This document shows positions 1 to 17,600 of a stretch of 64,000 nucleotides of DNA, one piece after another (within the stretch, counting starts at the first letter, position 1; every line of letters starts with the position of its first letter). Origin of the DNA: Eledone cirrhosa. Its lineage: Eukaryota. Below the pieces are notes generated by a model that had not been told where the DNA came from, ran no database searches, and worked only from the letters and a program-made list of their open reading frames with translations. The stretch is from the NCBI GenBank assembly GCA_964016885.1, contig OZ024742.1, positions 342,116,001 to 342,180,000 of the forward strand, written 5' to 3'. Position numbers and translations under genes: made by a program.

Positions 1-1157
1 CGTCCCAGGTTTTTTGGGGTCTACCTACTCCGTAACTTCCATCAATTTTGATCGCCCTGCACTTTTTTTATACAACTGTTGTCTTTCATGCGCATCACGT
101 GACCACACCAATGTAGTCTTCTTTCGAGTAAACAGCATCTGATCCTTCTTATTCCTAATTTCTCACTTAGTTCATTTATGCTTTGCCATTCGCATATTAC
201 ACATCCAACGGAGCATGGATGCTTCGTTCCTCTCCAGTCTGCGCAGATCCTCTGCACACAATGCCCACGTCTCACTGCCATGTAGCATTGCTGTTCGTAT
301 ACAGGCATCATACAATCTGCCTTTCATTTTTAGCGAGAAACCTTTAGTGGCCAATAGTGGTATTAGCTCTCTGAACTTTTTCCATCCCGTTCTGACTCTG
401 GCTACTGAACTGTCAGAGCACCCTCCACCACTGCTGATTTTGTCACCCAGGTAACGGAAAGTGTCCACTATTTCTATAGAACCATCTGGGCAATAGAAGG
501 AGATAGTATCCTGTGGGCACTTGCTACTTATTGCACCTGAGCATCGGCCACATATAAAATCTACGTTATTAGATAGCTTACCTGTAATCCCACTACATCT
601 TTTATGTACCCATTGTTTGCATTTGGGACATAAAATGGAATTTCTGCCTACTCCATTCCTACACACTGAGCATGGCCATTTCCCAGAGGGTTCCTGTACC
701 CTATTTTCCTTTCTACATACTAGAACTTTAGTCTTAGACAAGTTAACTTTAAGGCCTTTTGATTCTAGGCCATGCTTCCATGTTTGGAATTTCTTCTCTA
801 GTTCAGTCATCGATTCTATGAGAGTTAGATCATCTGCATATAGAAGTTCCCATGGGCAGCCGGTCTTGAACTCCTCTGTTATAGCCTGAAGGGCAATAAT
901 AAATAGGAGGGAGCTAAGGACAGAGCCTTGATGAACATCAACTATTCATCAACACCTAGTTTTCTAAGAGCCCACCAGATAATGGAGCAGGGGACGCTGT
1001 CAAAGGCTTTCTCCAAGTCAACAAAAGCTAAGTATAGGGGTTTACTTTTAGCTAGGTACTTCTGTAGTTGTCGTACAAGGAAAAGAGCGTCCGTGGTACT
1101 TTTACCTGACACAAACCTAAACTGCATTTCATCTAGATCAATTCGTTCTCTGATTAG
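1..1157 (-). mobile_element. RTE-clade non-LTR retrotransposon fragment (copy A): RT, PHD-like finger and C-terminus; 5'-truncated, decayed, runs off the left edge
   Basis: Minus-strand translations give RT motifs QFRFVSGKSTTDALF, LYLAFVDLEKAFD, HQGSVLS, ELLYADDL, GLKVNLSKTKVL, FRYLG and the RTE C-terminal [16 protein letters not shown] / RRLHWCGHVMRM / GRPQKTW. There are stops and frameshifts, and a ~88-bp internal deletion near 940 relative to copy C. The 5' end abuts a TA run at 1158. Confidence 0.93.
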
Positions 1158-1189
<32 letters not shown>

Positions 1190-1215
1190 ATGTAATAAAC
1201 AACATAAGGCAATTA

Positions 1216-1275
1216 TTCCATTTACCAGTGGTTTCTTAAAAGCAAAAGGTTTTGCTTTCAATCCTCAGAATGAAA
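1216..1275 (-). ncRNA. Type I hammerhead ribozyme motif (HHR-1)
   Basis: Minus strand reads UUUCAUU-CUGAGGA-UUGAAAGCAAAA CC UUUUGCUUUUAA-GAAA-CCACUGG-UA^-AAUGGAA. It has intact CUGANGA/GAAA/UH boxes, a 7-bp stem I, a ~12-bp stem II, a short stem III and a GUA cleavage triplet. Confidence 0.8.
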
Positions 1276-1465
1276 AATCCTGGTTTGTTTATTGAATATG
1301 GATTCTAAAAACAAAAATGCAATCTATATGAAAGTGAGGCTGGAAAAAGGAGAAGGAAAGGAAAAATAAAATAAAATAAAACTACACATGCAAACACACA
1401 CAAAAAAACACAAAAGCATACTAACACATTTATATATCGGACTTTTCTGATGGAATTACTTCATT

Positions 1466-1838
<373 letters not shown>

Positions 1839-4492
1839 ATCATCATCATCATCATTTTACGTCCGCTTTTCCCTGCTTGCAAGGGTGGGACGGGTTTTAT
1901 TCAGCACAGCATCTCTCCACTTGCCACGGTCCTTCGTCATCTCCACCACGAGCTTCAGCGATCTGAAGTCTGTTCTCACCACCTCCACCCATGTTTTTCG
2001 TGGTCTACATCTACCACGTCTTCCTTCAACTGGAATTTCCTGGCACTTCTTTACCCATCGTTCATCCTCCATGCACATCACATGTCCATACCACCGCAGT
2101 CTCTTCTCTTGCACACTACATTCTATCCCTCTCAGACACAGTTTCTCTCTCAACACACCCATGCTGGGTCGCTCACGCACGTTGACATTGCACATCCAAC
2201 GGAGCATGCTTGCCTTATTTCTCTCCAGCCGTCGCATATCCTCTGCAGTTGCTGCTCATGTCTCACTACCATGCAGCATCGCGCTCCTCACACAGGTATC
2301 ATATAACCGGCCTTTCGTACGCAGGGAGAAACGCTTCTTCGTCAGCAGAGGAAGCAGCTCCCTAAACTTCTTCCAACCCGTCCTTATTCTAGATACTATG
2401 GCTTCGGAACACCCCCTCCCATGCTAATCTGATCTCCTAGATACCGGAAGCTATCCACCACTTCTATAGAACCTGCCTGCATTTGAAAAATGTGTCTATC
2501 AATGCGACTTCTACTGTCTAATTTCTCTGTATGCATACGTATTTCTACCTACCTGTTAGTTTGCCTGCTATCCCACTACATCTCTTGTGTACCCAGGATC
2601 TGTATTGTGTGCATTTTATAGAATTTATGCCAGTTCCGTTTCTGCATATTGACGGAATCAGGAATTTTGTCCTCTTTTCTACTCCTCAACACTTTTGTCT
2701 TAGCTAGGTTCACTCTCAGTCCTCTTGCTTCCAACTGCTGTTTCCATAGCCATAATTTATTCTCTAGCTCCTCTACTGATTCTGCTATAAGAACCAGATC
2801 GTCAGCATAGAGAAGTTCCCATGGACAGCCAGTCTTAAACTCCTCTATTTTGGCTTGGAGGACTATTATGAACAAGACCGGGCTGAGGACCGAACGCTGA
2901 TGTACTCCTACTTGTATCTGGAATTCCTCACTAAACTCCATTCCTACCCTGACTTTACTGACAGCACCTCTGTACAAAGTTTGCACTGTCCTCACAAGCC
3001 ATTCCTCAACACCTAGTTTCCTTAGGGACCACCAGATGACAGATTGGGGTACCCTATCAAAGGCCTTCTCTAGGTCAACAAAGGCTAAGTATAGTGGCTT
3101 ATTCTTCTCTAAGAACCTCTCTTGTAATTGTCTCACCAAGAAGAGGGCATCTGTTGTACTTTTCCCAGGCACAAAACCAAACTGCATCTCATCTAGTTTG
3201 ACCCTTTCTCTAATTAGTTGTGCTAATATCCTTTCTGCCACTTTCATAACATGATCCATCAGTTTTATACCCCTATAATTGCTCATCTTCAGGGCATCCC
3301 CTTTACCTTTGTAGCAATTTATGAGAATACTGCTGCACCAGTCTTTGGGTATGGCACCACCATATGTAGCCTTATTGATGATGCGTGCAACCAGTTTAGT
3401 GCCTACGTCCCCTGATGCCTTCAGCATCTCAGCAACTATCCCCGACCGTCCAGCAGCCTTACAATTTTTCATTTCCTTAATGGCCTCTTGGACCCTATAT
3501 TCGTCAATCTCAATAGCTGGTCCCTCTGTCGGATCTACTGAGGGGAATTTTTCTCTCTCCTATTCGTTCTCCACATTCATCAGTCTCTCATAGTGACATT
3601 TCCAGGCCTCCTTTTTCTGATCATTCGTGACACTAAGTACACCGGCATCATTCCGGACACATTTATCTCCAACAACATCCTGATTTGCATTGACACACTG
3701 CCTTGCAATGTGGAACACCGCATGCTCTGATCTTCCCGTCGCAGAACATTGGCACACCTCCTACTCTCAGCCTCCCTGCGTGATAAGTACACCTGACGTC
3801 GAGCTTCTCTCTTAGCGGCTGTATATCCTTCTCTACTCCCACCCTTTTTCCAAGCCTTCCATGCTAGTCTTTTGTCTCTAATGGCTTTATCTACTATGCT
3901 GTTCCACCACCAGGTCACTCTCTGTCTGGCTGGAACTCTGCTCCAGCCACAAGTTTCACCAGTAGCCTGCAGTAAGTTGTCACGTACAAAATTCCAGTTA
4001 TTATCTATGTCATACATCTCTAAATCGTCTTATTTTTCGTCATACACATCTTGAAGAGCTTTCCTAAATTTGTATTTTAGTGAAAGGTCTTTTAGCTTCC
4101 AGACCTTTCTTCTCCACACCTTCCTGTATGTCTCATTCCATCTCTTGCTTACTGAGATATCACTAACGACTAACCTATGCTGTGGGGTAGATTCTTCCCC
4201 AGGGTATGCCTTGGTATTTGACACCACCTGCCTGTCCTGCTGCCTAACTAGTAAGAAGTCAATCTGGCTTATGTGCTCACCAGATTTGTAGGTTACTAGG
4301 TGGTTGGCAGTTTTCTAGAAGTCAATCTACTTGTATCACAAAATTCAAGGAGTCTCACTCCTTCTTCATTTCTTGAGCCGTAACCGTGCCCACCATGTAC
4401 CCCAGTGTAACCATCCTGGAGCTGTCCAACATGACCATTGAAGTTCCCTGTTAGCATAACGATGTCTCCGTCCTCTGTCATTGCAGTTGAGA
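1839..4492 (-). mobile_element. RTE-clade LINE (copy B, different subfamily), 5'-truncated within the APE endonuclease, decayed
   Basis: Minus-strand fragments include the APE C-half (GNFNGHVG, GYGSRNEEGVRLLEFC, QIDFLL, PQHRLVV), TWWWN, RT (NYRGIKL, QFGFVPGKSTTDA, AFVDLEKAFD, LLYADDL) and the C-terminal [17 protein letters not shown]. The 3' (ATG)n tail appears as (CAT)n at about 1839-1855. Multiple frameshifts. Confidence 0.95.
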
Positions 4493-4580
4493 TTTTAAAA
4501 AAAGCCCCTTACACAACTAACATTTTCAAAAATAAAACTTGAGTCGATTTAAGTCTTACTTCAAATCAATATATATATAT

Positions 4581-5165
4581 ATAAAAATTAGAATTGTTGC
4601 TCTGAAATAGCTATATATATATGAATGTATATATAGTGTATTTTGCAATACACTGTATGCTTCATAAAAAGCATTTTGAAGACCTTATGCTATTGTTTTA
4701 AAGTAGTGACAGACTCACTTACTTTAATTTCAGCAAACAGGGGGAGATAAAGCTGACAAGGCCTTGTTTCTGCATTTATTGATGCTTATCAAAGCCAATA
4801 TATACAGCTATATATATAGCCAATATATATAGCCAATATATATAGCTATTTCAGAGCAACAATTCTAATTTTTTATTTCTGCTTGACCGGCAACCGCTCT
4901 GTATAATCAGTTCCTGATTATTTACTAGAATTCTATAAGAACCAAAACATCCAGGTTTTCAGCAAACAGGAGGAGTAGTTGGCTTTGATAAGCATCAATA
5001 AATGCAGAAACAAGGCCTTGTCAGCTTTATCTCCCCCTGTTTGCTGAAATTAAAGTAAGTGAGTCTGTCACTACTCTAAAACAATAGCATAAGGTCTTCA
5101 AAATGCTTTTTATTAAGCATACAGTGTATTGCAAAATACACTATATATACATTCATATATATATA
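4581..5165. repeat. Two interleaved inverted repeats (~40 bp: 4581-4620 / 4836-4876; ~187 bp: 4612-4798 / 4979-5165)
   Basis: Direct reverse-complement comparison: ATGAATGTATATATAGTG...TATCAAAGCCAA matches TTGGCTTTGATA...CACTATATATACATTCAT with very few mismatches, and AATTAGAATTGTTGCTCTGAAATAGCTATA matches TATAGCTATTTCAGAGCAACAATTCTAATT. Confidence 0.9.
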
Positions 5166-6211
5166 TCTATATATATAAAACTGAGGTTGTCTGTCTGTCT
5201 ATCGATTTTTGGCACACATCTCCTCTTAAAATCTCTCACGGAATTGCACCGAAATTGCTATACTTGTACATTGAGCCCTAGCGAAGACATCGGAAAAAAA
5301 AAATTTCAAATTGACCCGCCCTATCTGACGAAATCGAATATAATGTATCGATTTTTGAGCGTAAGTGATCAGTTATTTCCCTTTGTTCTGTTTACATTGA
5401 GCGTCTGCGTGCAAAAATTAAAAAAATTACGCTGGCTTTCTCAGCGTTAGCCTTTTAAAACAATATTTTTACTTGAAAACAAGTCTATTTAAAGACTACG
5501 TAAAACAAGCAAATATTTCGTAAAAAAAAGCAAAAATTATATAAGTTTATTTAAAATATATGTATCTGTAAATTTCGTTAGGCGTGCAGACAGACAGTCG
5601 TGCAGACAGACAGTCGTGCAGAGAGGTGATATAGGCGTGCAGACAGATAGTCGTGCAGAGAGGTGATATAGGCGTGCAGACAGATAGTCGTGCAGAGAGG
5701 TGATATAGGCGTGCAGACAGACAGTCGTGCAGAGAGTTGATATAGGCGTGCAGACAGACAGTCGTGCAGAGAGGTGATATAGGCGTGCAGACAGACAGTC
5801 GTGCAGAGAGGTGATATAGGCGTGCAGACAGACAGTCGTGCAGAGAGGTGATATAGGCGTGCAGACAGATAGTCGTGCAGAGAGGTGATATAGGCGTGCA
5901 GACAGACATAACTGATAATTTGGTTACGCTAATGTTTTTCTCTGCGTTGCAGTGTTTACATTTTCGATCTTTGTTAATAAATAACCAGTGCAGTTTTTAT
6001 CCCCAGCATCCTCTTTTGTTATAACATTCGGGTTATCGTTGTTTTCTTAACTTCATAAGGCATATTGTTGGTTGAGGGAATATTAATCAAAAACACCACA
6101 TGCAAGTCTGCACAGTAGACACTACAGTTTTTAAGCCAAAAAAGAAACTTAACATTGTAACTTTAACACAGCTACTGAGCGACCCCGAGCAACGCCGGGT
6201 TTTACTGCTAG
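5166..6211 (+). mobile_element. Non-autonomous Helitron
   Basis: Starts A|TCTATATATATAAAA followed by a (GTCT)n tract. Ends with a GC-rich hairpin CCCGAGCAACGCCGGG (6184-6199) 8 nt before CTAG|T (6208-6211). Inserted between A and T with no TSD, matching canonical Helitron termini. Confidence 0.85.
5579..5907. repeat. 37-bp minisatellite (~8.5 copies) inside the Helitron
   Basis: Unit TAGGCGTGCAGACAGACAGTCGTGCAGAGAGGTGATA, with GGCG recurring at 5634, 5671, 5708, etc. It is built from a 16-bp CGTGCAGACAGACAGT subunit, present as an extra copy in the first monomer. Confidence 0.95.
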
Positions 6212-6488
6212 TATATATATATAATAATAATAATACTCATCTTGAAGTTCTTGAAGAGATAAGACACACTTGACTCTGAAAGGCTAAAATGAATCACTAG
6301 AACTGCTTAACCACGTTCCAGCCATCCATCCATACAATCTTCCAGGTATCCCCCTATTTCCTAATTGCAAATGTTCCACTCACACAATTATTACTATATT
6401 TATCATCTCACGAGCTTCCACAACATATTTATTTTTACCTTCATTTTCTTTTCCCATGCTGTCCCTCTACGAACTCATCTACTCTCTT

Positions 6489-6570
6489 CCTCTCTCTTAC
6501 ACTATTATTAGTTGTTGTATTTATCATTTCCTCTCTCTTACACTATTATTGGTTGTTGTATTTATCATTT
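6489..6570. repeat. 41-bp tandem duplication (2 copies)
   Basis: CCTCTCTCTTACACTATTATT(A/G)GTTGTTGTATTTATCATTT starts at 6489 and again at 6530. Confidence 0.9.
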
Positions 6571-6844
6571 CGCTGTCTCTACGAAGTCATCTACTCCTAT
6601 CGGTTTATTTTGCCATGAGATGCTACAGGCCATGATGGCTACCTACCTCACAATTTCCCTCCCTCCCGTCCCCTCACACCACCATAGCCTATTCGACCAA
6701 TCAAACCTCAGCATGCCCCCCACCCCCCACAAACCCTGCCATTTCTACTACTACCTAACTCTCTCCTCCCTTGTCCCAGTCCCAACACACCCTGCCATTA
6801 TTACCACTGTTCTTCTAGCCCTGAATTTTCCTACCATTATGTAT

Positions 6845-9800
6845 GGATGAGCTGAGAATAAATGGAGCAACTCTGAATTAATAGATGAAAATTAATATGA
6901 ATCCACGAGCTACCAAGCACCCATGTGAAGCTCCAATTCAGAGACAGGAAGCACACACACACCCCTGCAAAAATCGACCCTCCCCTACGAATGTTGACAA
7001 ATGACCAAAACTCAAAGTTGGTACCATCAATGTAAGCACAATGAAAGGAAGAGCAGGAGAAATCGTAGAAATGCTGGAGCGAAAGGAAATTGATGTATGC
7101 TGTGTGCAAGAGACTAGATGGAGCGGAGAGTCTGCTAGAGTCCTTGTAGGAAAAGGTCAGTGCTACAAATTTTTCTGGGTGGGAAATGACGATGGGATGG
7201 GTGGTGTAGGTATACTACTAGCTGACAAGTGGGTAGATAAAGTAATCTCAGTGTACAGGGTAAATGCAAGAATCATTAAACTCAGACTAGTCCTGAATAA
7301 AACAATTACCACAATAATATCAGCTTACGCACCCCAATCGGGGTTGCCAGACGAACTTAAGGATAGGTTTTACGAGTCCCTAATGCACACTACTGCTCTA
7401 ACAAACGACAATGACTTCCTAATCATTGCAGGAGATTTTAACGGACACGTAGGTAAACACTGTGACGGCTTCAATAGAGTCCATGGAGGCCATGGGGTTG
7501 GCACAAGAAATGAGGAAGGATTCAGACTTCTAGAATTCTGCGACGCCAATGACATGTTGATATGTAACACAAACTTAAAAAACCCGATAACCACCTGATC
7601 ACCTATAGATCAGGGGAACATTCTAGTCAAATAGATTTTATCCTCATCAGAGGATGTGACAGATGGACAGTCGTAAACACAAAAGCCTACCCTAGTGAGG
7701 AATGTACCTCCCAACATAGTTTAGTTGTCAGCGACCTCACGGTCAGGACTAGACGAACCTGGAAGCAGAGGCGAACCTGGAGAAGAAAGATCTGGAAGCT
7801 GAAAGTCCCCTCAGCCAGTAACAGATTTAAAGATATTTTACTCAATGCCTATGACAGTAAAGAAGAACAGATAGAGACATTCAATGTAGAAGAGCACTGG
7901 GAGTTCCTAAAAAATAACTTACTAGAGGCGACGGATGAGATCTGTGGCTGGATTAAGACCACAAGCAGGAGGAGAGTGACTTGGTGGTGGAACAATAAGG
8001 TAGATGAGGCAGTTAAGGCCAAGAGACAGGCATGGAAAGAATGGAAGAATGGGGGAAGCAGGGTACATTACATAGAGACAAAGAGGGAAGCTAGGCGACA
8101 AGTATACTTAGCTAGGAGGGAAGCAGAGGATAGAAAATTCAAGCATGTTTTGCAACGTGAGGACCAGAAACAGGAGGTATTCAAGATTGCGAGGCAGTGT
8201 GTCAGAGAGAATTGTGATGTCATTGGAGAGAAGTCTATCCGGAATGATAAAGGTGAGCTTGCCCTCACAAGTGCTGAGAAGAAAGATGCATGGAAGAGCC
8301 ATTATGATAGATTACTAAATGAGGAGAATGCATGGGAAGAAGAGACCCTACCCCAAGTAGACCCTATAGAGGAGCCAGCAGTATAAGTCAGCAGCAGTGT
8401 ATTAAGTAAGGCAATCAAAGATATGAAGATGGGGAAGGCAACCGGTCCATCGGGTATAGCTGCTGAGATGCTGAAGGCATCTGGGTATGTAGGTCACACT
8501 ATAACCACACGTATTGTTAACCAGGTAATACTAGAAGGTGTCATACCAAAAGATTGGTGCAGTAGCATCATTGTCAACTGCTACAAAGGTAAAGGTGATG
8601 CACTAGATAGAGGAAACTATAGAGGTATAAAGCTGATGGACCAGGTCATGAAAGTAACAGAAAGAGTTATAGCACAGTTGATTAGGGACCGGGTGAAACT
8701 AGATGAGATGCAATTTGGGTTTGTACCAGGAAGAGGCACCACTGATGACCTCTTCCTTGTGAGACAGTTACAGGAAAAGTACCTAGCTAAAAGTAAGCCA
8801 CTCTACCTAGTATTCGTCGATCTCGAGAAAGCCTTTGACAGAGTTCCATGTGCTATAATCTGGTGGGCTCTTAGAAAACTAGGAGTAGATGAATGGCTTG
8901 TGAAAGCTGTACAAGCCATGTATAGGGGAGCAGTCAGCAAAGTTAGGATTAGCAATGAGTATAGCGAGGAATTTAGCTTACAGGTTGGTGTCCACCAGGG
9001 CTCTGTTCTTAGCCCTCTCCTGTTCATCATAGTCCTGCAGGCAATAACGGAGGAGTTTAAGACTGGATGCCCATGGGAACTCCTGTATGCAGATGAGCTC
9101 GCACTTATAGAATATATGGTAGAACTAGAGAAGAAATTCCAAACTTGGAAGCAGGGACTAGAAAGAAAGGGTCTCAAAGTCAACATGACAAAGACTAAGG
9201 TCCTTGTAAGTAGATGAGAAAACAGAACCCAGATCCCCTCAGGGAAATGGCCTTACTCAGTATGTAGGAAAGGTGTAGGTAGGAACTCCATTCTCTGCCC
9301 CAAATGCAAACAATGGGTACACAAGAGATGTAGCAGGATCTCAGGAAGCTTAATTAAGAATGTAGGCTTCACATATAGCAGCTGTGCTGGGACAGCAAGC
9401 AGCAAACAGCCACAGGAAACAAGTACCACCAATCTCTGGGAGGGCTCTGTAGAAACAGTAGACAGCTTCTGCTACCTAGGTGACCGAATTAGCAGCAGAG
9501 GTGGGTGTTCAGAAAGTACAATAACTAGAGTAAGAACGGGATGGAAGAAGTTCAGGGAGCTACTGCCACTGCTAGCTGCAAAAGGCTTCTCCCTCAAAAT
9601 GAAAGGCAGACTGTATGATGCGTGTATCCGAACAGCAATGTTACATAGTAGTGAGACCTGGGCACTGAAGGTGGAAGACTTATGTAGATTAGAAAGAAAC
9701 GAAGCCAGCATGCTCCGATGGATGTGTAATAGTAATTATACACGAATGGCAAAGCATAAATGAATTGAGAGAGAGACTGAGCATCAGAGGAATCAAATGC

Positions 9801-10347
9801 TGTGTGCAGGAGAGGCGGATGCGTTGGTATGGACATGTGATGCGTATGAAGGATGACAGCTGCATAAAAAGGTGCAGAGCACTAGAAGTCAATGGAAGCC
9901 GTGGAGTGGGGAGACCCAAGAAGACCTGGGATGAGGTGATAGGGCCGACCTTACCCAGTTGCACCTCTCAAAGGCGATGACACACGACCGTGACCTCTGG
10001 CGTCATGCAGTAATACAGAGTACCTGCCTTCCCATGGGGACAAGCTGAAGCATATAGACAATATGCCGCCACACCCTCCCACTGCAAAGTGGTTGTGGAG
10101 GTGCCACAGCAAAAAAGCACCCAGCCCACACTGTAAAGTGGACGGGTAGGCGCCACGGAAAAAAGCACCCAGCACTCACTGTAAATGAGGTTGGTGTTAG
10201 GAAGGGCATCCAGCTGTAGAAACCAAGCCAAAATCAGTTCCTGTATGAGCAAGGCATGGTCAGCCGACAAGACACTGCCCACAACAGGACAACCCGTCTA
10301 ACCCATGCTAGCATGGAAGAACGGACGTAAAACGGTGATGATGATGA
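6845..10347 (+). mobile_element. Near full-length RTE-clade LINE (copy C), single APE-RT ORF now disrupted; 5' boundary approximate
   Basis: APE from about 7010 (KVGTINVSTM, DVCCVQETRW, GVGIL, ISAYAPQ, IAGDFNGHVG, SQIDFIL, SQHSLVV), RT at 8423-9217 and C-terminus to about 10000. In-frame stops at 8384 and 9215, frameshifts, and catalytic YADD changed to YADE. The 3' UTR ends in the palindrome CCATGCTAGCATGG (10303-10316) and a (GAT)n tail at about 10336-10347. Confidence 0.95.
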
Positions 10348-10503
10348 CTATTTATAGTTATGTATATACTATAAACAGGAAAGGTCAGTAATTTATTACT
10401 ACCTTATTACCAGTAACAGAAATAGTTCAATGTAAGAACATCAGGTGTTTTACAGAGCAGGAATATAAATTACACAAGTATCAAAGTTATGTTCAAATCA
10501 TTT

Positions 10504-10555
10504 AATCGCTGACAATTGTTTCTTCCAAACTTTAGTTTGGAGTCATCGGAGCATT
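10504..10555 (-). ncRNA. Minimal type I hammerhead ribozyme motif (HHR-2), U4C core variant
   Basis: Minus strand reads AAUGCU-CCGAUGA-CUCCAAAC UAAA GUUUGGAA-GAAA-CAAUUG-UC^-AGCGAUU. It has a palindromic 6-nt stem III and a GUC triplet, with one core change (CUGA to CCGA) and a mismatch at the base of stem II. Confidence 0.65.
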
Positions 10556-10942
10556 ATCAATATTTGTACATATAATTAACCTCCTATTCAACTGAACAAT
10601 CATATAGTTACATATATGTTGATGTTGTGAACAACAGTTTAGTATATATAGGGTGGAATGGATGTGATATATATTATACGAGAATTGTACAATAATTAAA
10701 ATTAAAATTAAAAGCACAGAGTGGAATACATGCGACAGATAATACAAGAGAATAGTCTAATAATTAAAGAGGCATTGAGAAAGTACATATTCAAGCGTGT
10801 AGAGATTGCACATCTGTTAGTCATATATATGGGAAGGAAACAAGCAAAGGTATTAGGTATATATGAATACTGTATGGCAAGGTATTACATACAATTTATT
10901 TGATTTATTTAATTGTGTAATTTATACTTTATATATATATAT

Positions 10943-11180
10943 AGGTGTTAAGGTGCAGGTTAATTGCATCCGTAGGTGGTATGCCAGATGAGCACTCGAT
11001 GCTCTTGGGGAGCAGATATCAATAGTATTAATATATAAGGGAACAAAGGAGCAGTGTTGCATCATATACATATTTAATTACATATTACATATGTTTCACT
11101 GTCGATCAGCTCAAGGAACAATCTATTAATGATCGAACCTGACTCGGAAATCAGAAACTCCTCAGACATGTAGACTCACG
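10943..11180 (-). mobile_element. Short TA-flanked, hammerhead-bearing repeat (Penelope-like pseudo-LTR / retrozyme-like remnant)
   Basis: A ~240-bp unique block bounded on both sides by (TA)n, with HHR-3 near its minus-strand 5' end. The family assignment is inferred only from the known link between minimal hammerheads and Penelope-like elements. Confidence 0.45.
11079..11172 (-). ncRNA. Type I hammerhead ribozyme motif with enlarged, branched stem II (HHR-3)
   Basis: Minus strand reads UACAUGU-CUGAGGA-[~60 nt containing hairpins CUGAUU/AGUCAG and UCGAUCA/UGAUCGA]-GAAA-CAUAUG-UA^-AUAUGUA. It has a 7-bp stem I, a palindromic stem III and a GUA triplet. Confidence 0.7.
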
Positions 11181-11191
11181 TATATATATAT

Positions 11192-11457
11192 AACAATACG
11201 TCGTGCAGCATAGTAATTACAGCATGTGTGTGTATATATATATATATATATACACACACCGATTGAACCTGGGATAAACATATATATATATATATGTGTG
11301 TGTTTATCCCGGGTTCAATCAATGTGTCATCATTTCATCATCATCATCATTTCATTTTACGTCCACTTTTTCCCGACTTGCAAGGGTGGGACACAAGGGT
11401 GGGACATATATATATACACACACATGCTGCAATTACTATGCTGCACGACGTATTGTT
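11192..11457. repeat. Nested inverted repeats (~50 bp: 11192-11242 / 11406-11457; ~27 bp: 11254-11280 / 11301-11327)
   Basis: AACAATACGTCGTGCAGCATAGTAATTACAGCATGTGTGTG matches its reverse complement ending at 11457 with 1 mismatch. GATTGAACCTGGGATAAACA matches TGTTTATCCCGGGTTCAATC across a TA run. Confidence 0.9.
11328..11405 (-). mobile_element. Extremely 5'-truncated RTE 3' end (copy-B subfamily)
   Basis: (CAT)n followed by TTTTACGTCCACTTTTTCCCGACTTGCAAGGGTGGGAC matches 1841-1891. The CAAGGGTGGGAC segment is duplicated at the junction. Confidence 0.85.
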
Positions 11458-11533
11458 TATGGGTGACAAATTATGATATCTAAATAAGATCTACATAGAA
11501 TCCACCACACTACACTGTTCTTCTATAATACAT

Positions 11534-11971
11534 TTAACCCTTTCATTACCATATTTCTAATAAAAAAAATAGCCCAAAATTTCGAAAATAATCAAGAATA
11601 TGGAGGGATTGAGTAACATAGCTAACTTTCTTGTTGTTAAATTGGTTTTTGGAGCATAACTTAACAAAGGTTCTTACATAAAATTATGATGAAAAACTTT
11701 ACATAAATATAAACTTAAAACCATTTTGTTACCATATTTCTAATGCAAAACACTACCTAGGGTTTCAAATAATTTTGAAAATAATCAAGAATTTGGATGG
11801 GTTTAATAAATTTAATTCATTGTTAAGTTGGTTTGGGGAACAGAAATTAACAAAGGTTCTCACATAAAATTATTTTGGAAGGTTTTAACATAAATATGAA
11901 CATTTTAAAATGGGCAGTGTGTATCATAGAAACTGAAACAGTTTCAGGTGGGTTGGTATAAAATTGGTTAA
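11534..11971. mobile_element. Old piggyBac-like MITE with a ~180-bp internal tandem duplication
   Basis: Begins TTAA|CCCTTTCATTACC and ends with degenerate GGTATAAAATTGG|TTAA. The module TTACCATATTTCTAA...GAAAATAATCAAGAAT...TTAACAAAGGTTCT.ACATAAAATTAT...ACATAAATAT occurs twice (from about 11534 and 11715). Confidence 0.5.
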
Positions 11972-12052
11972 TACAGCAAAACATAATGTTCTTTTATAGT
12001 ATATTTCATTCCTGTGTGGGATTCAGCATAATACTCTTCTATAAGACAGATA

Positions 12053-12371
12053 TATATTCATGAAGCCATAACTCCTGATGGATTCATTGGGATGCTGTAG
12101 TGACATATGACATTTTAAACCTTGTGGAGCCCATCCCTTCTCCAGGTCGAACACAGCTGATTCTTCCAGAGAAGGAGAGAGAGAGAGAGGAATAGAGTGG
12201 AAGGAGGAAAGAGATATTGAGAAAGTAAAATCAACCCTTGTACTGGTACTCTTTATTGGCCTCAAAAGAACAAAAGGCAAAATTGACCTCGGCAGGATTT
12301 GGAGAGAGCCGGAACAAATACCGCAAAGCATTCTATCCAACATTCTAATGACTCAGCCAATTCACTGCCTG
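12053..12371 (-). mobile_element. Diverged tRNA-type SINE insertion with 13-bp target-site duplication
   Basis: The minus strand starts GGCAGTGAATTGGCTGAGTCATTAGAATG...GCGGTATTT...AAATCCTGCCGAGGTCAATTTTGCCTTT...AGTACCAGT, resembling abundant octopus SINE heads (recalled, not searched). It is flanked by TATAAGACAGATA at 12040-12052 and 12372-12384. Confidence 0.65.
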
Positions 12372-12777
12372 TATAAGACAGATAATAAAGACAAAATATT
12401 TGTATGTTTACATATTTTATTTTAGTTACAATATAAGTACTGTATGAAATTTAATCGAGTTTTTGTTTTTGATTTTGAGACTGATGCACTGCTTGCTTCA
12501 ATTGAGGAAGGAAGCCTCTGCATAGCCATTCAGTTGCTAGATATAGCAGCGAAATCTCTCTCAAATCACACCCCATCATATAAAAATATAACAAAAAAAA
12601 AAAAAAGAGAAATAAGAAATAAGAAAGACAATAAATGATGTCGTCCATATATCTATGTCTGAATAAATAACATGATGGTCATGTTTGGAATGTCTTTCAT
12701 TTGCTGAATCTAGGGTGACCTTGGGCTAAACAACAACAGTGATACAAAAGTTTTTGTTGTTGAACATTTGTATTTTA

Positions 12778-12830
12778 TGTGTATGTATGTATATATATGC
12801 ATACACACACTTATATATATGCGTGTGTGT

Positions 12831-12873
<43 letters not shown>

Positions 12874-13084
12874 TGTGTGTACGTATATGTGTATGTATGT
12901 ATATGCACACATGTTTATGTATATATGTATGTGTCAGTGTATATATATATATTTGTATATGTATGTATATGCACACATACTTATATATATGTATGTGTGT
13001 GTGTATATATATATGTGTATGTATGTATATGCACACACACCTATATGTATGAGTGTATATATATATATATATAATATGTGTATA
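12778..13084. repeat. Compound (TA)/(TG)/(TATG) microsatellite
   Basis: Low-complexity alternating purine-pyrimidine tract with the recurring motif GTATGTATGTATATGCACACA. Confidence 0.9.
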
Positions 13085-13382
13085 TTTAATGTGGTGTTAA
13101 TCTTCAGTTTCATAAACCAATTTTAAAGAATGGATACACAGCCTGGAATGTTTTTGTAAAATCTTTATATAAATATTTTTATTTTAGTTTTTTTTTTAAC
13201 TATTAAATTCCCCAAATATTTTCAGACACTTTTCCTTCATTAGAAATAGTGGTAATTATATTTTAATTTATTTTATTTCATGCATTTAAATTTGTCTTAT
13301 GATTTTTTTTATTAACTTTTTATTATTATTTAGTTATATTTATTCAATGATTTATTTGTTTATTTTTAATCAAACTTATGCT

Positions 13383-13663
13383 TATATATATATATATAAT
13401 ATATATGATTATATACATACATATATATATATATATATTTATACACATACATAGATACATACATACATACATAGATATATATACATGCATACATAATTAT
13501 ACACATAGATAGATATATACATACATACATACATATACATACATACATACATACATACATACATACATACATACATACATACATACATACAATTGAATGT
13601 GGTGCCCCAGCATAGCTGCAGTTCAACGACTGACAAAAGTTAAAAGAACACACACACACACAC

Positions 13664-13703
<40 letters not shown>
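13383..13703. repeat. (TA)n, (CATA)n and (CA)n microsatellites
   Basis: Visible simple repeats, including a pure (CATA)n at about 13537-13590 and (TA)n at 13667-13703. Confidence 0.9.
13591..13648 (+). mobile_element. Probable SINE 3'-end fragment embedded in microsatellite
   Basis: GGTGCCCCAGCATAGCTGCAGTTCAACGACTGACAAAAGTTAAAAGAA resembles a common octopus SINE tail (recalled, not searched). Confidence 0.45.
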
Positions 13704-13707
<4 letters not shown>

Positions 13708-13950
13708 CATCATCATATATATATTTTCGAGGGGAATACAAAATAATCTTTCTAATTAAAAATTTTGAATATAAACTACTATCACTACTACTACCACTAT
13801 TACTACTACTACAGTTTCCACTATAACATTATTATTATTTTAGTATAGTAATTTTTATGATAATAATAGTAATGAGAAATATGCTAGTAATTTTCATTGT
13901 TGTATTATTATTATTTTTATTATTATTTTTTTAATTATTATTATTAAATT

Positions 13951-14077
13951 AAAATACCAGTAAAGTACTGGGGTCGATATAATCGACTTTCCCCTCCCCC
14001 CAAAATTTCTGGCCTTGTGCCTATAGTAGAAATCATTATTATTATTATTATTATTACTATTATTATTATTACTATTA
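13951..14077 (+). mobile_element. SINE 3'-end fragment with (ATT)n tail
   Basis: TACCAGTAAAGTACTGGGGTCGATATAATCGAC..CCCCTCCCCCCAAAATTTCTGGCCTTGTGCC followed by (ATT)n. It shares the TACCAGT motif with the SINE at about 12240-12250. Confidence 0.6.
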
Positions 14078-14382
14078 AAATTTTTTTCACATATTTTCAT
14101 TCATATGAAAATATGTTTTCCTTCTTTGATTATAGTTTTGTTTTCTGAAATGTAAAAAAAAAATATTTTTTCCAAAAATATAAATAAATTTTGTTCTGTT
14201 TTCTTCATTTCATTTCATCTGACACTTAAAAAAAATAATAATAATAAACAAAACAAAGAAATTTTTTCTTATGTTTTCTGCAATGTTTTTCCGCACTGTT
14301 CTCAATGTTTTCTCTAGAGTTTTCCACACTGTTTTCCACAATGATCAAAATGATCAGAATCTTTCAAAATTACCCCCTCAAG

Positions 14383-14546
14383 CTACCTCTTGTCTTTTTG
14401 CCCATAGAAAGTAAAATATCGTGCATATTCCTGTGACTTCACAGTCGTTGCACTAACTGCACTTCTTGGGTAGAGAATGTCTGCACGAGGAGACCATGTC
14501 CGATTGTAGGGATCGTAGCATTCCACAGTTGATATTACAGTTTGAC
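14383..14546 (-). CDS. Terminal coding exon of a Kelch-repeat (BTB-Kelch, KLHL10-like) gene
   Basis: A polypyrimidine tract and acceptor TTTTATTTCATATTTTATTTTTCAG| precede 14546 (phase 1). The exon encodes (G)QTVISTVECYDPYNRTWSPRADILYPRSAVSATTVKSQEYARYFTFYGQKDKR*, with TAG at 14385-14383. VECYDP...W...RSA is the last Kelch blade, and the RSA(V/L)S end resembles KLHL10. Upstream exons are outside the window. Confidence 0.85.
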
Positions 14547-14672
14547 CTGAAAAATAAAATATGAAATAAAAGAGAATTTTAGTGAGATACATTCTGGAAG
14601 GTTCTATGGTCATATATAAGGGCCCCTTGAGACTATTGTAATAGTGGTAGAAGAGTCAGAGAGAAGATACAG

Positions 14673-17600
14673 GAAATATATGAGCTACAGTGGCGTTAAA
14701 TATATGAGATCCAGTGATATGAAGTATGTCAGCTCCAGTGGTATGAAGTATGTGATCTACAGTGATATGAAGTATGTGATCTCCAGTGGTATGAAGTATG
14801 TGATCTCCAGTGGTATGAAGTATGTCAGCTCCAGTGGTATGAAGTATGTGATCTACAGTGGTATGAAATATGTCAGCTCCAGTGGTATGAAATATGTCAG
14901 CTCCAGTGGTATGAAGTATGTAATCTCCAGTGGTAAGAAGTATGTCAGCTCCAGTGGTATGAAGTATGTGATCTACAGTGGTATGAAGTATGTGATCTCC
15001 AGTGGTATGAAGTATGTGATCTACAGTGGTATGAAGTATGTGATCTACAGTGGTATGAAGTATGTGATCTACAGTGGTATGAAGTATGTGATCTACAGTG
15101 GTATGAAGTATGTCAGCTCCAGTGGTATGAAGTATGTGATCTACAGTGATATGAAGTATGTGATCTCCAGTGGTATGAAGTATGTCAGCTCCAGTGGTAT
15201 GAAGTATGTGATCTCCAGTGGTATGAAGTATGTGATCTACAGTGGTATGAAGTATGTTAGCTCCAGTGGTATGAAGTATGTGATCTACAGTGATATGAAG
15301 TATGTGATCTCCAGTGGTATGAAGTATGTCAGCTCCAGTGGTATGAAGTATGTTAGCTCCAGTGGTATGAAGTATGTGATCTACAGTGGAATGAAGTATG
15401 TCCGCTCCAGTGGTATGAAGTATGTCAGCTCCAGTGGTATGAAGTATGTGATCTACAGTGGTATGAAGTATGTGATCTCCAGTGGTATGAAGTATGTGAT
15501 CTCCAGTGGTATGAAGTATGTGATCTCCAGTGGTATGAAGTATGTGATCTACAGTGGTATGAAGTATGTGATCTACAGTGGTATGAAGTATGTGATCTCC
15601 AGTGGTATGAAGTATGTGATCTCCAGTGGTATGAAGTATGTGATCTACAGTGGTATGAAGTATGTGAGCTCCAGTGGTATGAAGTATGTGATCTACAGTG
15701 GTATGAAGTATGTGATCTACAGTGGTATGAAGTATGTGATCTCCAGTGGTATGAAGTAGGTGATCTCCAGTGGTATGAAGTATGTGATCTACAGTTGTAT
15801 GAAGTATGTGATCTACAGTGGTATGAAGTATGTGATCTCCAGTGGTATGAAGTATGTGATCTCCAGTGGTATGAAGTATGTGATCTCCAGTGGTATGAAG
15901 TATGTGATCTACAGTGGTATGAAGTATGTGATCTACAGTGGTATGAAGTATGTGATCTACAGTGGTATGAAGTATGTGAGCTCCAGTGGTATGAAGTATG
16001 TGATCTACAGTGGTATGAAGTATGTGATCTACAGTGGTATGAAGTATGTGATCTCCAGTGGTATGAAGTATGTGATCTCCAGTGGTATGAAGTATGTGAT
16101 CTACAGTGGTATGAAGTATGTGAGCTCCAGTGGTATGAAGTATGTGATCTCCAGTGGTATGAAGTATGTGATCTCCAGTGGTATGAAGTATATGATATCC
16201 TGTGGTATGAAGTATGTCAGCTCCAGTGGTATGAAGTATGTGATATTCTGTGGTATGAAGTATGTGATCTCCAGTGGTATGAAGTATGTGATATCCTGTG
16301 GTATGAAGTATGTCAGCTCCAGTGGTATGAAGTATGTGATCTACAGTGGTATGAAGTATGTGATCTACAGTGGTATGAAGAATGTGATCTACAGTGGTAT
16401 GAAGTATGTGATCTACAGTGGTATGAAGTATGTGATCTACAGTGGTATGAAGTATGTGATATCCTGTGGTATGAAGTATGTGATCTCCAGTGGTATGAAG
16501 TATGTGATCTACAGTGGTATGAAGTATGTGATCTCCTGTGATATGAAGTATGTCAGCTCCAGTGGTATGAACTATGTGATCTACAGTGGTATGAAGTATG
16601 TGATCTACAGTGGTATGAAATATGTAATCTCCTGTGATATGAAGTATGTCAGCTCCAGTGGTATGAAATATGTGATCTACAGTGGTATGAAGTATGTGAT
16701 CTACAGTGGTATGAAGTATGTGATCTACAGTGGTATGAAGTATGTGATCTACAGTGGTATGAAGTATGTGATCTCCAGTGGTATGAAGTATGTGATCTAC
16801 AGTGGTATGAAGTATGTGATCTACAGTGGTATAAAGTATGTGATCCCCAGTGGTATGAAGTATGTGATATCCTGTGGTATGAAGTATGTGATATCCTGTG
16901 GTATGAAGTATGTGATATCCTGTGGTATGAAGTATGTGATATCCTGTGGTATGAAGTATGTGATCTCCAGTGGTATGAAGTATGTCTGCTCCAGTGGTAT
17001 GAAGTATGTGATCTACAGTGGTATGAAGTATGTGATCTCCAGTGGTATGAAGTATGTGATCTCCAGTGGTATGAAGTATGTCAGCTCCAGTGGTATGAAG
17101 TATGTTAGCTCCTGTGGTATGAAGTATGTGATCTACAGTGGTATGAAGTATGTCAGCTCCAGTGGTATGAAGTATGTCAGCTCCAGTGGTATGAAGTATG
17201 TGATCTCCAGTGGTATGAAGTATGTGATCTCCAGTGGTATGAAGTATGTGATCTCCAGTGGTATGAAGTATGTGATCTCCAGTGGTATGAAGTATGTCAG
17301 CTCCAGTGGTATGAAGTATGTGATCTCCAGTGGTATGAAGTATGTGATCTACAGTGGTATGAAGTATGTGATATCCTGTGGTATGAAGTATGTGATCTCC
17401 AGTGGTATGAAGTATGTGATCTACAGTGGTATGAAGTATGTCAGCTCCAGTGGTATGAAGTATGTGATCTCCAGTGGTATGAAGTATGTGATCTACAGTG
17501 GTATGAAGTATGTGATCTCCAGTAGTATGAAGTATTTGATCTCCAGTGGTATGAAGTATGTCAGCTCCACTGTTTGAAGTATGTGATATCCTGTGGTATG

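What the first reader, a model, noticed from the sequence alone, without database searches (positions are those of the whole stretch)
1216..1275. Intact hammerhead ribozyme between a LINE and a TA run (HHR-1)
Seen: every catalytic box (CUGAGGA, GAAA, UA) is present with fully pairing stems I and II in the correct type-I order, in DNA the ORF track leaves unexplained. Known: short-stem-III type-I hammerheads mark Penelope-like elements and retrozymes in animals. Inference: this is a possibly still active self-cleaving RNA from an unannotated non-autonomous cephalopod retroelement occupying roughly 1190-1465. The stem II closing pair is U-A rather than the usual G-C.
Basis: partly seen in the sequence, partly recalled or inferred. 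Interest (0 to 1): 0.75.

Follow-up and report, generated by a model that had tools for sequence, protein, structure and literature searches.

The report
Hammerhead end of Hydra-type Penelope element
The hammerhead-ribozyme motif is real, but it is one of about 1,200 identical copies at the end of a young, protein-coding Penelope-like jumping gene that matches the known Hydra group; here it is a short cut-off insertion in a TA repeat, it is predicted to cut RNA mainly in pairs (untested), and longer copies carry a second, likely uncuttable hammerhead.

Summary
The type-I hammerhead is present on the minus strand (1275-1216): stem I 7 bp, CUGAGGA, stem II 11 bp, GAAA, palindromic stem III, cut predicted after GUA (1223). 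Shuffles gave none this good. The genome holds 1,193 exact copies. It is not a non-autonomous element. It is the 3' end of an autonomous Penelope-like element with an open 714-codon frame, a telomerase-like RT fold and Hydra-clade motifs. The window copy is a 240-nt arm plus an inverted 30-nt tail in (TA)n; 20 of 20 two-arm insertions in view pair one short with one long end. The U-A closing pair is ordinary for this clade. Cleavage is untested, and copies do not pile up at the cut site. The scan found this kind of element before on other DNA. Possibly new: younger elements carry a second hammerhead in the 3' UTR, a self-insertion with GUG at the cut site since its earliest stage. It may be a dead duplicate tolerated because it cannot be cut, or a non-cleavable dimer partner (about 20%). 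New member of a known kind; low interest.

The parts
1216..1275 (-). Type-I hammerhead motif (HHR-B): stem I 1275-1269/1222-1216, core 1268-1262, stem II 1261-1236, GAAA 1235-1232, palindromic stem III 1232-1224, predicted cut between 1223 and 1222
   Evidence: Sequence; descriptor and shuffles; 1,193 exact genomic copies of 1217-1275
1189..1428 (-). Sense arm: last 240 nt of the Penelope-like element, 5'-truncated, ending at the 'short' terminus 33-37 nt after the cut site
   Evidence: 99-100% matches to query 43-282 at 39 other places among 40 candidates scored; 2 mismatches to L031:8516-8755; end positions
1429..1438 (.). 10-nt junction between the two arms
1439..1468 (+). Inverted arm: only the last ~30 nt of the 'tail' (element positions about +83 to +112 from the cut site), ending at the 'long' terminus
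   Evidence: Matches L031:4364 onward with one substitution before the terminus
1158..1188 (.). (TA)n flank, left part of the likely target
   Evidence: Tandem repeat scan
1475..1840 (.). (TA)n-rich flank, right part of the likely target
   Evidence: Tandem repeat scan

Best explanation
The motif is the hammerhead at the 3' end of a young, protein-coding Penelope-like retroelement with Hydra-clade motifs, and the window holds a short two-arm copy that was likely made when the element's own reverse transcriptase-endonuclease nicked a (TA)n tract and copied only the end of its RNA. Shown: full units run hammerhead - tail - 714-codon frame - microsatellite-rich UTR - hammerhead (about 4.4 kb); copies end at one of two fixed points 33-37 and about 105-112 nt after the cut site, each followed by TA; two-arm insertions join one short and one long end head to head. 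Inferred: the two ends are the two internal start sites of reverse transcription, as shown in vitro for a lizard Poseidon element. The hammerhead is predicted to be weak alone and to fold as a double hammerhead through its palindromic stem III, and would cut tandem transcripts into unit lengths in source elements. The copied template was likely uncut or circular RNA, because copies run through the cut site. The window copy itself is most likely a passenger with no function at this locus.
For: Copy number: 1,193 exact 59-nt hammerheads, control 0; 3,797 copies of the 33 nt after the cut site. Architecture: L031 has hammerheads at 4236 and 8676 around a frame at 4496-6637, plus an inverted tailed copy. 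Protein: RWK 41, DKT 118, FDIVDFYPS 254, YRDD 350, CxCx5C 559, VVY 578, YVG 598, CxxC 662, CxH 693; these are the Hydra features in section 11 of PMC8557442. AlphaFold model pLDDT 93.6; top fold matches are telomerase RTs (Foldseek E 1.4e-8; Z 16.1, rmsd 8.9, 330 aligned). Many frames of full length among the 150 best places. Purifying selection between an early and the youngest stage: 40 of 251 four-fold sites changed against 7 of 711 and 13 of 711 first and second positions. Termini: in 40 stretches around the first listed hits plus the window, 62 ends were scored (34 short, 28 long); 20 stretches show both arms and all 20 pair short with long (one is a duplicate of another). Contigs of public runs show TA loose ends at the same two places. 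In the first 100 hits, 25 of 27 neighbour pairs within 12 kb are head to head. Two copies cofold into the double hammerhead as the lowest-energy fold, -31.4 kcal/mol, against -11.7 for the best single-copy fold, which lacks stem III. Across 13 older and younger copies the core never varies except N7, and 95.2% of stem cells pair. A sister family keeps core and stem I with a wholly different stem II.
Against: No cleavage data. Covariation is thin: 1 of 21 pairs changes on both sides, in 2 related sequences. The flank after the cut site is as conserved as the ribozyme, so conservation of the region is not specific to catalysis. No excess of copies starting at the cut site: only 99 of 3,797 lack A17, and about 10 of the 53 of these that I read start at the cut, roughly 0.4% of all copies, against about 0.5% per nucleotide in the 100 nt upstream (27 of 57 arms, my count). 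In PMC11167929 hammerhead mutants did not affect insertion in vitro and no RNA ends were seen at the cut site. Pfam gave no RT or GIY-YIG hit for the protein; the endonuclease rests on motifs only. No tree against published Hydra proteins was built. The unit is 4.4 kb, longer than the <3 kb typical of Hydra.
Confidence: 0.88

Rival explanations
1. The 280-nt unit is an independent non-autonomous retroelement or retrozyme that multiplies through its own short self-cleaved RNA.
For: Most copies are short and lack the frame: 27 of 57 sampled arms stop within 100 nt upstream of the cut site (my count). Retrozymes are reported to derive from PLE ends (bioRxiv 10.64898/2026.07.22.740005).
Against: 5' ends vary from copy to copy and longer copies run on into the UTR and frame of the autonomous element. 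Only 1 of 27 close neighbour pairs is a direct repeat, at unit distance 4,289 nt; no short tandem arrays of the kind that define non-LTR retrozymes were seen. The window's junction was not found in the other places scored: they match query 43-282 or less.
Confidence: 0.05
2. The element is as described, but its hammerhead seldom cuts in vivo; the region is conserved mainly as the protein-binding and RT-start signal, and the ribozyme hitch-hikes.
For: No pile-up of copies at the cut site. Hammerhead mutants insert normally in vitro in PMC11167929; PMC4209133 reports low activity of minimal PLE hammerheads; PMC8557442 raises that hammerheads may parasitise PLEs. In a longer context the lowest-energy fold is not the hammerhead.
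Against: Changes fall on positions the ribozyme tolerates (N7 as C, U or G; loop II; G-U to G-C, U-G to U-A). The sister family replaced stem II but kept the core. The internal duplicate is blocked exactly at the cut nucleotide, which is what one expects if cutting matters.
Confidence: 0.2
3. This particular copy has been recruited by the host, or belongs to the neighbouring LINE, as a self-cleaving element.
For: It is intact and lies between two LINE remnants.
Against: It is intact because it is young: 2 differences in 240 nt from a full unit. It sits in (TA)n like the other copies and the LINE frames end outside it. No partner hammerhead in window 1-14700.
Confidence: 0.02

Closest known systems
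Hydra clade of C-terminal-endonuclease Penelope-like elements, including Hydra-1_Obim (Craig et al. 2021, PMC8557442; passages, section 11, Files S1 and S2 and cut protein excerpts seen)
   Same: Single frame with RWK, DKT, CxCx5C, CxxC and CxH; canonical type-I hammerhead near the 3' end; (TA)n insertion; stem III arms ACCA/UGGU around one base as in Hydra-1_oBim; non-G-C first pair of stem II as in 18 of 25 listed families.
   Different: A distinct family: 23 of the first 40 residues match Hydra-1_Obim by eye, and stems I and II differ. Unit about 4.4 kb with a microsatellite-filled UTR. Partial tandems are clear here, whereas Hydra-1_Obim is listed with no pLTR. Younger elements carry a second, GUG-bearing hammerhead in the UTR.
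Poseidon element PAc of the green anole (Frangieh et al. 2024, PMC11167929; parts 1-2 of 4 read)
   Same: Two RT start sites downstream of the hammerhead delimit the tail; AT-rich targets; both DNA strands cut and extended.
   Different: Here the tail is about 70-75 nt, not 30-40, and hammerhead and tail lie upstream of the start codon, whereas the PAc hammerhead overlaps the start of the frame. No biochemistry exists for this family.
Minimal and short-stem-III hammerheads of metazoan PLEs (Cervera and de la Pena 2014, PMC4209133; parts 1-2 of 4 read)
   Same: Type I, long stem II, palindromic stem III, proposed dimeric activity, mostly single truncated copies or opposite-strand pairs.
   Different: That paper reports a conserved G10.1-C11.1 pair and a bulged base after A9; neither is present here.
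Inverted pLTR insertions of Adineta vaga Penelope elements (Arkhipova et al. 2013, PMC3846280; passages seen)
   Same: Head-to-head inverted copy, tail on one end only, palindromes at the inverted junction.
   Different: Here thousands of very short insertions in (TA)n; target duplications cannot be read.
Animal non-LTR retrozymes (bioRxiv 10.64898/2026.07.22.740005; part 1 of 5 read)
   Same: Type-I hammerhead in a non-coding repeat related to PLE ends.
   Different: Defined by tandem units each with a hammerhead; this copy is a dispersed truncated end of a coding element.

Membership tests
Type-I hammerhead ribozyme | Core CUGANGA, GAAA, UH in type-I order | tested here: met
   H17 is A
Type-I hammerhead ribozyme | Stems I, II, III can pair | tested here: met
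   7, 11 and 3 bp; stem III forms in the dimer fold, not in the single-copy minimum
Type-I hammerhead ribozyme | G10.1-C11.1 first pair of stem II (common, not obligatory) | tested here: not met
   U-A here; also absent in 18 of 25 Hydra hammerheads of File S2, PMC8557442 (my count)
Type-I hammerhead ribozyme | Covariation in the stems | tested here: inconclusive
   13 sequences: 1 of 21 pairs with a two-sided change, 3 with one-sided changes; stem II replaced in a sister family
Type-I hammerhead ribozyme | Match to an Rfam hammerhead model | tested here: inconclusive
   No hit; whether these models cover long-stem-II PLE variants was not checked
Type-I hammerhead ribozyme | Site-specific self-cleavage | not testable with these tools
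   Needs in-vitro transcription
Hydra-clade PLE | Single frame with a telomerase-like RT | tested here: met
   714 codons open; top fold matches telomerase RT, Z 16.1, rmsd 8.9, 330 aligned
Hydra-clade PLE | C-terminal GIY-YIG endonuclease | tested here: inconclusive
   VVY 578 and YVG 598 on two strands of the model; no Pfam hit; the domain folded alone gave pLDDT 36.7 and was not searched
Hydra-clade PLE | RWK motif; DKG changed to DKT | tested here: met
   RWK 41, DKT 118; RW[KR] in 117 and DK[TS] in 118 of 120 homologues
Hydra-clade PLE | Linker CxCx5C instead of CX2-5CxxC; CxxC and CxH near the C-terminus | tested here: met
   CxCx5C 559, CxxC 662, CxH 693; no CX2-5CxxC
Hydra-clade PLE | CCHH motif absent from the endonuclease | not tested
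   Needs alignment to canonical PLE endonucleases, which were not in hand
Hydra-clade PLE | Canonical hammerhead at the element end; insertion into (TA)n | tested here: met
Hydra-clade PLE | Generally shorter than 3 kb (descriptive) | tested here: not met
   Hammerhead-to-hammerhead 4,440 nt in L031 and 4,154 in L032, owing to microsatellite-rich UTR and a self-insertion
Hydra-clade PLE | Phylogenetic placement within the clade | not tested
   Published proteins were seen only as cut excerpts and compared by eye
Non-LTR retrozyme | Tandem short units, each with a hammerhead | tested here: not met
   Single copy in window 1-14700; 25 of 27 close pairs inverted, 1 direct at 4.3 kb
Non-LTR retrozyme | Family encodes no protein | tested here: not met
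Naiad/Chlamys PLE | Endonuclease N-terminal to RT; no canonical hammerhead | tested here: not met
   RT fold spans residues 1-480; canonical hammerhead present

The most novel reading that the evidence does not exclude
The element captured a copy of its own 3' end inside its UTR and kept it as a non-cleavable partner. This internal hammerhead has GUG at the cut site but an intact core, so one unit-length RNA could fold a double hammerhead in which the internal core cuts the terminal site and is itself never cut. A milder form: the duplicate survived only because it cannot be cut, which would be genetic evidence that PLE hammerheads do cut in vivo. For: G17 in 63 of 70 early-type hits (6 of the 7 others are terminal copies) and 99 of the first 100 of 281 young hits; core intact in 96 of the first 100 of 331; 3 of 51 structural positions changed against 15.9% at four-fold sites (P 0.03); early duplicate plus terminal copy cofold as a double hammerhead with G17 paired to C3. 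Against: not significant against its own flanks (P 0.16, or 0.06 with indels); the middle and young versions no longer cofold that way; a core-mutant variant has spread to several places. Not found in paper searches or in earlier-finding look-ups.
Probability: 0.2. Interest if true: 0.6.

Novelty: new member of a known kind. Interest (0 to 1): 0.25.

Why it matters
As a single motif it matters little: PLE hammerheads, Hydra elements in octopus, tails and inverted truncated copies are all published, and at least a dozen other hammerhead families turned up in the flanks fetched here. The family is a useful test system, though: it is young, has many open frames and two sharply defined ends, and no biochemistry on the Hydra clade came up in my searches. 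The internal GUG duplicate gives a natural experiment on an open question, whether PLE hammerheads cut in vivo and what for.

Tried and rejected
Rfam: no hammerhead family hit; taken as a limit of the models, not tested further. Pfam on the protein: one hit at E 0.11, below cut-off; PDB sequence search: nothing relevant. A Pfam scan of the protein alignment was not obtained. Folding the endonuclease region alone failed (pLDDT 36.7). Expression: no RNA holder listed; the four runs laid are contigs of unknown type, so nothing on transcription, strand or RNA ends. Idea that cleaved linear RNA is the template: rejected, no excess of copies starting at the cut. Naiad: rejected on domain order. Link to the adjacent LINE: rejected. 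Independent twin priming as the sole source of the two arms: doubtful, since 7 of the 18 two-arm cores that could be halved are near-mirror images meeting at a palindromic centre (L168, L170, L180 and its duplicate L183, L192, L200, L204 at 0.92 or more half-to-half identity) and arms often share private variants; fold-back self-priming was already proposed in PMC3846280. Pairing of the tail end with the stem I 3' arm as a switch: seen in this family but not in two sister-family copies, so not pursued. The H17 tally was not used, because it holds duplicate rows and rows chosen for lacking A17; searches replaced it. Look-up of earlier findings by sequence gave nothing.

Full report
Observation. 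The minus strand of 1216-1275 reads as a type-I hammerhead: stem I 7 bp, CUGAGGA, stem II 11 bp with a four-base loop, GAAA, stem III ACC/GGU and GUA at the cut site, with the cut predicted between 1223 and 1222. A descriptor found only this motif in window 1-14700. In 300 block shuffles the mean was 0.007 hits at the loosest setting and none with stems this long. Rfam did not detect it. One copy folds with stems I and II only. The stem III segment is a palindrome around one base, and two copies cofold into the double hammerhead as the lowest-energy structure (-31.4 kcal/mol). That is the dimer arrangement described in PMC4209133 (parts 1-2 of 4 read).

What it belongs to. The 282-nt insertion gave 1,677 candidates in the own genome, of which 40 were scored; the other places match query 43-282 at 98-100%. 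The 59-nt motif occurs 1,193 times exactly and the 33 nt after the cut site 3,797 times. Longer stretches show the parent. L031 has an inverted tailed copy, then hammerhead (4236), tail (4364), a 714-codon open frame (4496-6637, first Met at residue 5), a microsatellite-rich UTR and a terminal hammerhead (8676). The protein has RWK, DKT, RT motifs, CxCx5C, VVY...YVG, CxxC and CxH. These are the features that define the Hydra clade in section 11 of PMC8557442, which lists Hydra-1_Obim from an octopus with (TA)n preference. By eye 23 of the first 40 residues match, so this is a different family. A model from 117 aligned sequences (pLDDT 93.6) matches telomerase RTs best. The endonuclease is supported by motifs only. 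Many of the 150 best genomic places have full-length open frames. Between an early stage (11 loci given, 10 with frame sequence) and the youngest (10 loci), 40 of 251 four-fold sites changed but only 7 of 711 and 13 of 711 first and second positions. The family is autonomous and recent.

The window copy. It is 240 nt of the element's 3' end on the minus strand (2 mismatches to L031), a 10-nt junction, and about 30 nt of the tail on the plus strand, between TA runs. This is the rule in the family. In 40 stretches around the first listed hits, plus the window, 62 ends were scored: 34 short (about +33, three of them with an atypical flank) and 28 long (about +105 to +112). One stretch gave no end. 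Twenty stretches show both arms and all 20 join a short with a long end head to head; one duplicates another. Contigs of public runs have TA loose ends at the same two places. In the first 100 hits, 25 of 27 close pairs are head to head. PMC11167929 (parts 1-2 of 4 read) shows in vitro that a PLE protein nicks both strands of AT-rich DNA and starts reverse transcription at two internal sites that delimit the tail. I infer the same here. Seven of 18 two-arm cores are near-mirror images with palindromic centres, as in PMC3846280 (passages), which suggests fold-back copying for part of them. The LINE frames at 172-945 and 1857-4029 are neighbours.

Is the ribozyme under selection? In 13 terminal hammerheads chosen to span old to young copies, the core is invariant apart from N7, 95.2% of stem cells pair, three pairs change on one side, and one pair changes on both sides in two related sequences. 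That is weak covariation. A sister family keeps core, stem I and a stem III palindrome but has an unrelated, longer stem II, which is better evidence. Against a simple processing role, copies do not start at the cut site more often than elsewhere. Of 3,797, 99 lack A17 (79 G, 16 U, 4 C). I read 53 of these and about 10 begin at the cut, about 0.4% of all copies when scaled, against about 0.5% per nucleotide upstream (27 of 57 arms, my count). The template was likely uncut or circular RNA, in line with PMC11167929. Cleavage was not testable and no RNA run was listed.

A second hammerhead in the element. Of 20 elements at 92.7% or more frame identity to L031, 18 carry an internal hammerhead 318-526 nt after the stop codon (L091 has a single one, L077 none found); all 7 elements at 90.5% or less in which the terminal one was found lack it. 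It is bounded by TA runs and ends at the short terminus, so it is a self-insertion of about 105 nt, the same kind of object as the window copy. It has GUG at the cut site in 63 of 70 early-type hits (one of the 63 is a sister-family copy); six of the seven others are terminal copies and one is an internal copy with GUA. Among young copies 99 of the first 100 of 281 have GUG, and the exception is a terminal copy. NUG sites are non-cleavable (CUG control in PMC11875169, passages; general rule from my own knowledge). The core is intact in 96 of the first 100 of 331 hits. From early to young majority forms (17 and 53 rows), I counted by eye 3 changes in 51 structural positions, all at outer helix ends, and 7 substitutions plus 2 indels in 51 others: P 0.03 against the four-fold rate, but P 0.16 (0.06 with indels) against its own flanks. 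The early form cofolds with the terminal copy as a double hammerhead with one live site; the middle and young forms do not. A core variant, CUGUAGA, is present in several full-length copies including L031 and L032. Two copies with GUA have a broken stem I (L087, L115). The likeliest reading is a duplicate that persisted because it cannot be cut and is slowly decaying. A helper role is not excluded (about 20%). Paper searches and look-ups showed no description of such a case; searches located the known families.

Comparison and verdict. It works like the pLTR hammerhead of a C-terminal-endonuclease PLE and is filed as a new family of the Hydra clade on motifs, fold, hammerhead and target, without a tree. 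It fails the retrozyme tests (no tandem short units, family codes for a protein). Earlier notes of this scan reached the same reading on other DNA; they are unchecked and not counted as support. Type-I hammerheads are common in this genome: 145 distinct motif strings (363 rows, overlapping loci included) in the loci fetched, from at least a dozen families by eye. Interest 0.25.

Noticed in passing
L031:7124-7183 and homologues (3' UTR of the element): Internal second hammerhead with GUG at the cut site, a self-insertion into the element's own (TA)n; see novel case.
   Followed up: yes
L119-L137 versus L120-L146: N7 changes from U to G in both the internal and the terminal hammerhead at about the same stage, while their diagnostic differences persist. 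Short conversion between the two or parallel change; unexplained.
   Followed up: partly
L049, L054-L064, L073-L076: The commonest young form of the internal hammerhead has lost its 5' flank by a deletion that stops at the edge of stem I. Could be microhomology or selection.
   Followed up: no
L207-L226: Sister family with the same stem I, core and post-cut sequence but a different, 39-nt stem II with an internal loop; same short and long ends in (TA)n; 3,058 candidates.
   Followed up: partly
L031:4329-4350; L208 and L222 tails: A small hairpin in the tail, about 15 nt beyond the short terminus, is predicted in this family and in one of two sister copies folded; earlier notes propose such stems as RT-start signals.
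   Followed up: partly
L031:4282-4392: The end of the tail repeats the stem I 5' arm and can pair with the sequence just after the cut site, competing with stem I; not seen in the sister family.
   Followed up: partly
flanks of L012-L223: At least a dozen other type-I hammerhead families, nearly all with palindromic stem III; one occurs seven times in L040, where a ~480-nt tandem repeat lies (about 5450-8750), which looks retrozyme-like.
   Followed up: no
window 14710-64000: 24-bp satellite, about 2,054 copies at 92% match, running to the window end; long stop-free frames arise from the repeat.
   Followed up: no
window 172-1150 (-), 1857-4029 (-), 7005-9763 (+): Three decayed LINE copies with reverse transcriptase frames, the third also with an endonuclease-like frame; the clade was not determined.
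   Followed up: no
window 5599-5908 and 10080-10194: 37-bp minisatellite (8.4 copies) and a 48-49-bp repeat (about 2.3 copies).
   Followed up: no
L168: A 5-kb near-perfect palindromic insertion of the element (99.3% between arms).
   Followed up: no
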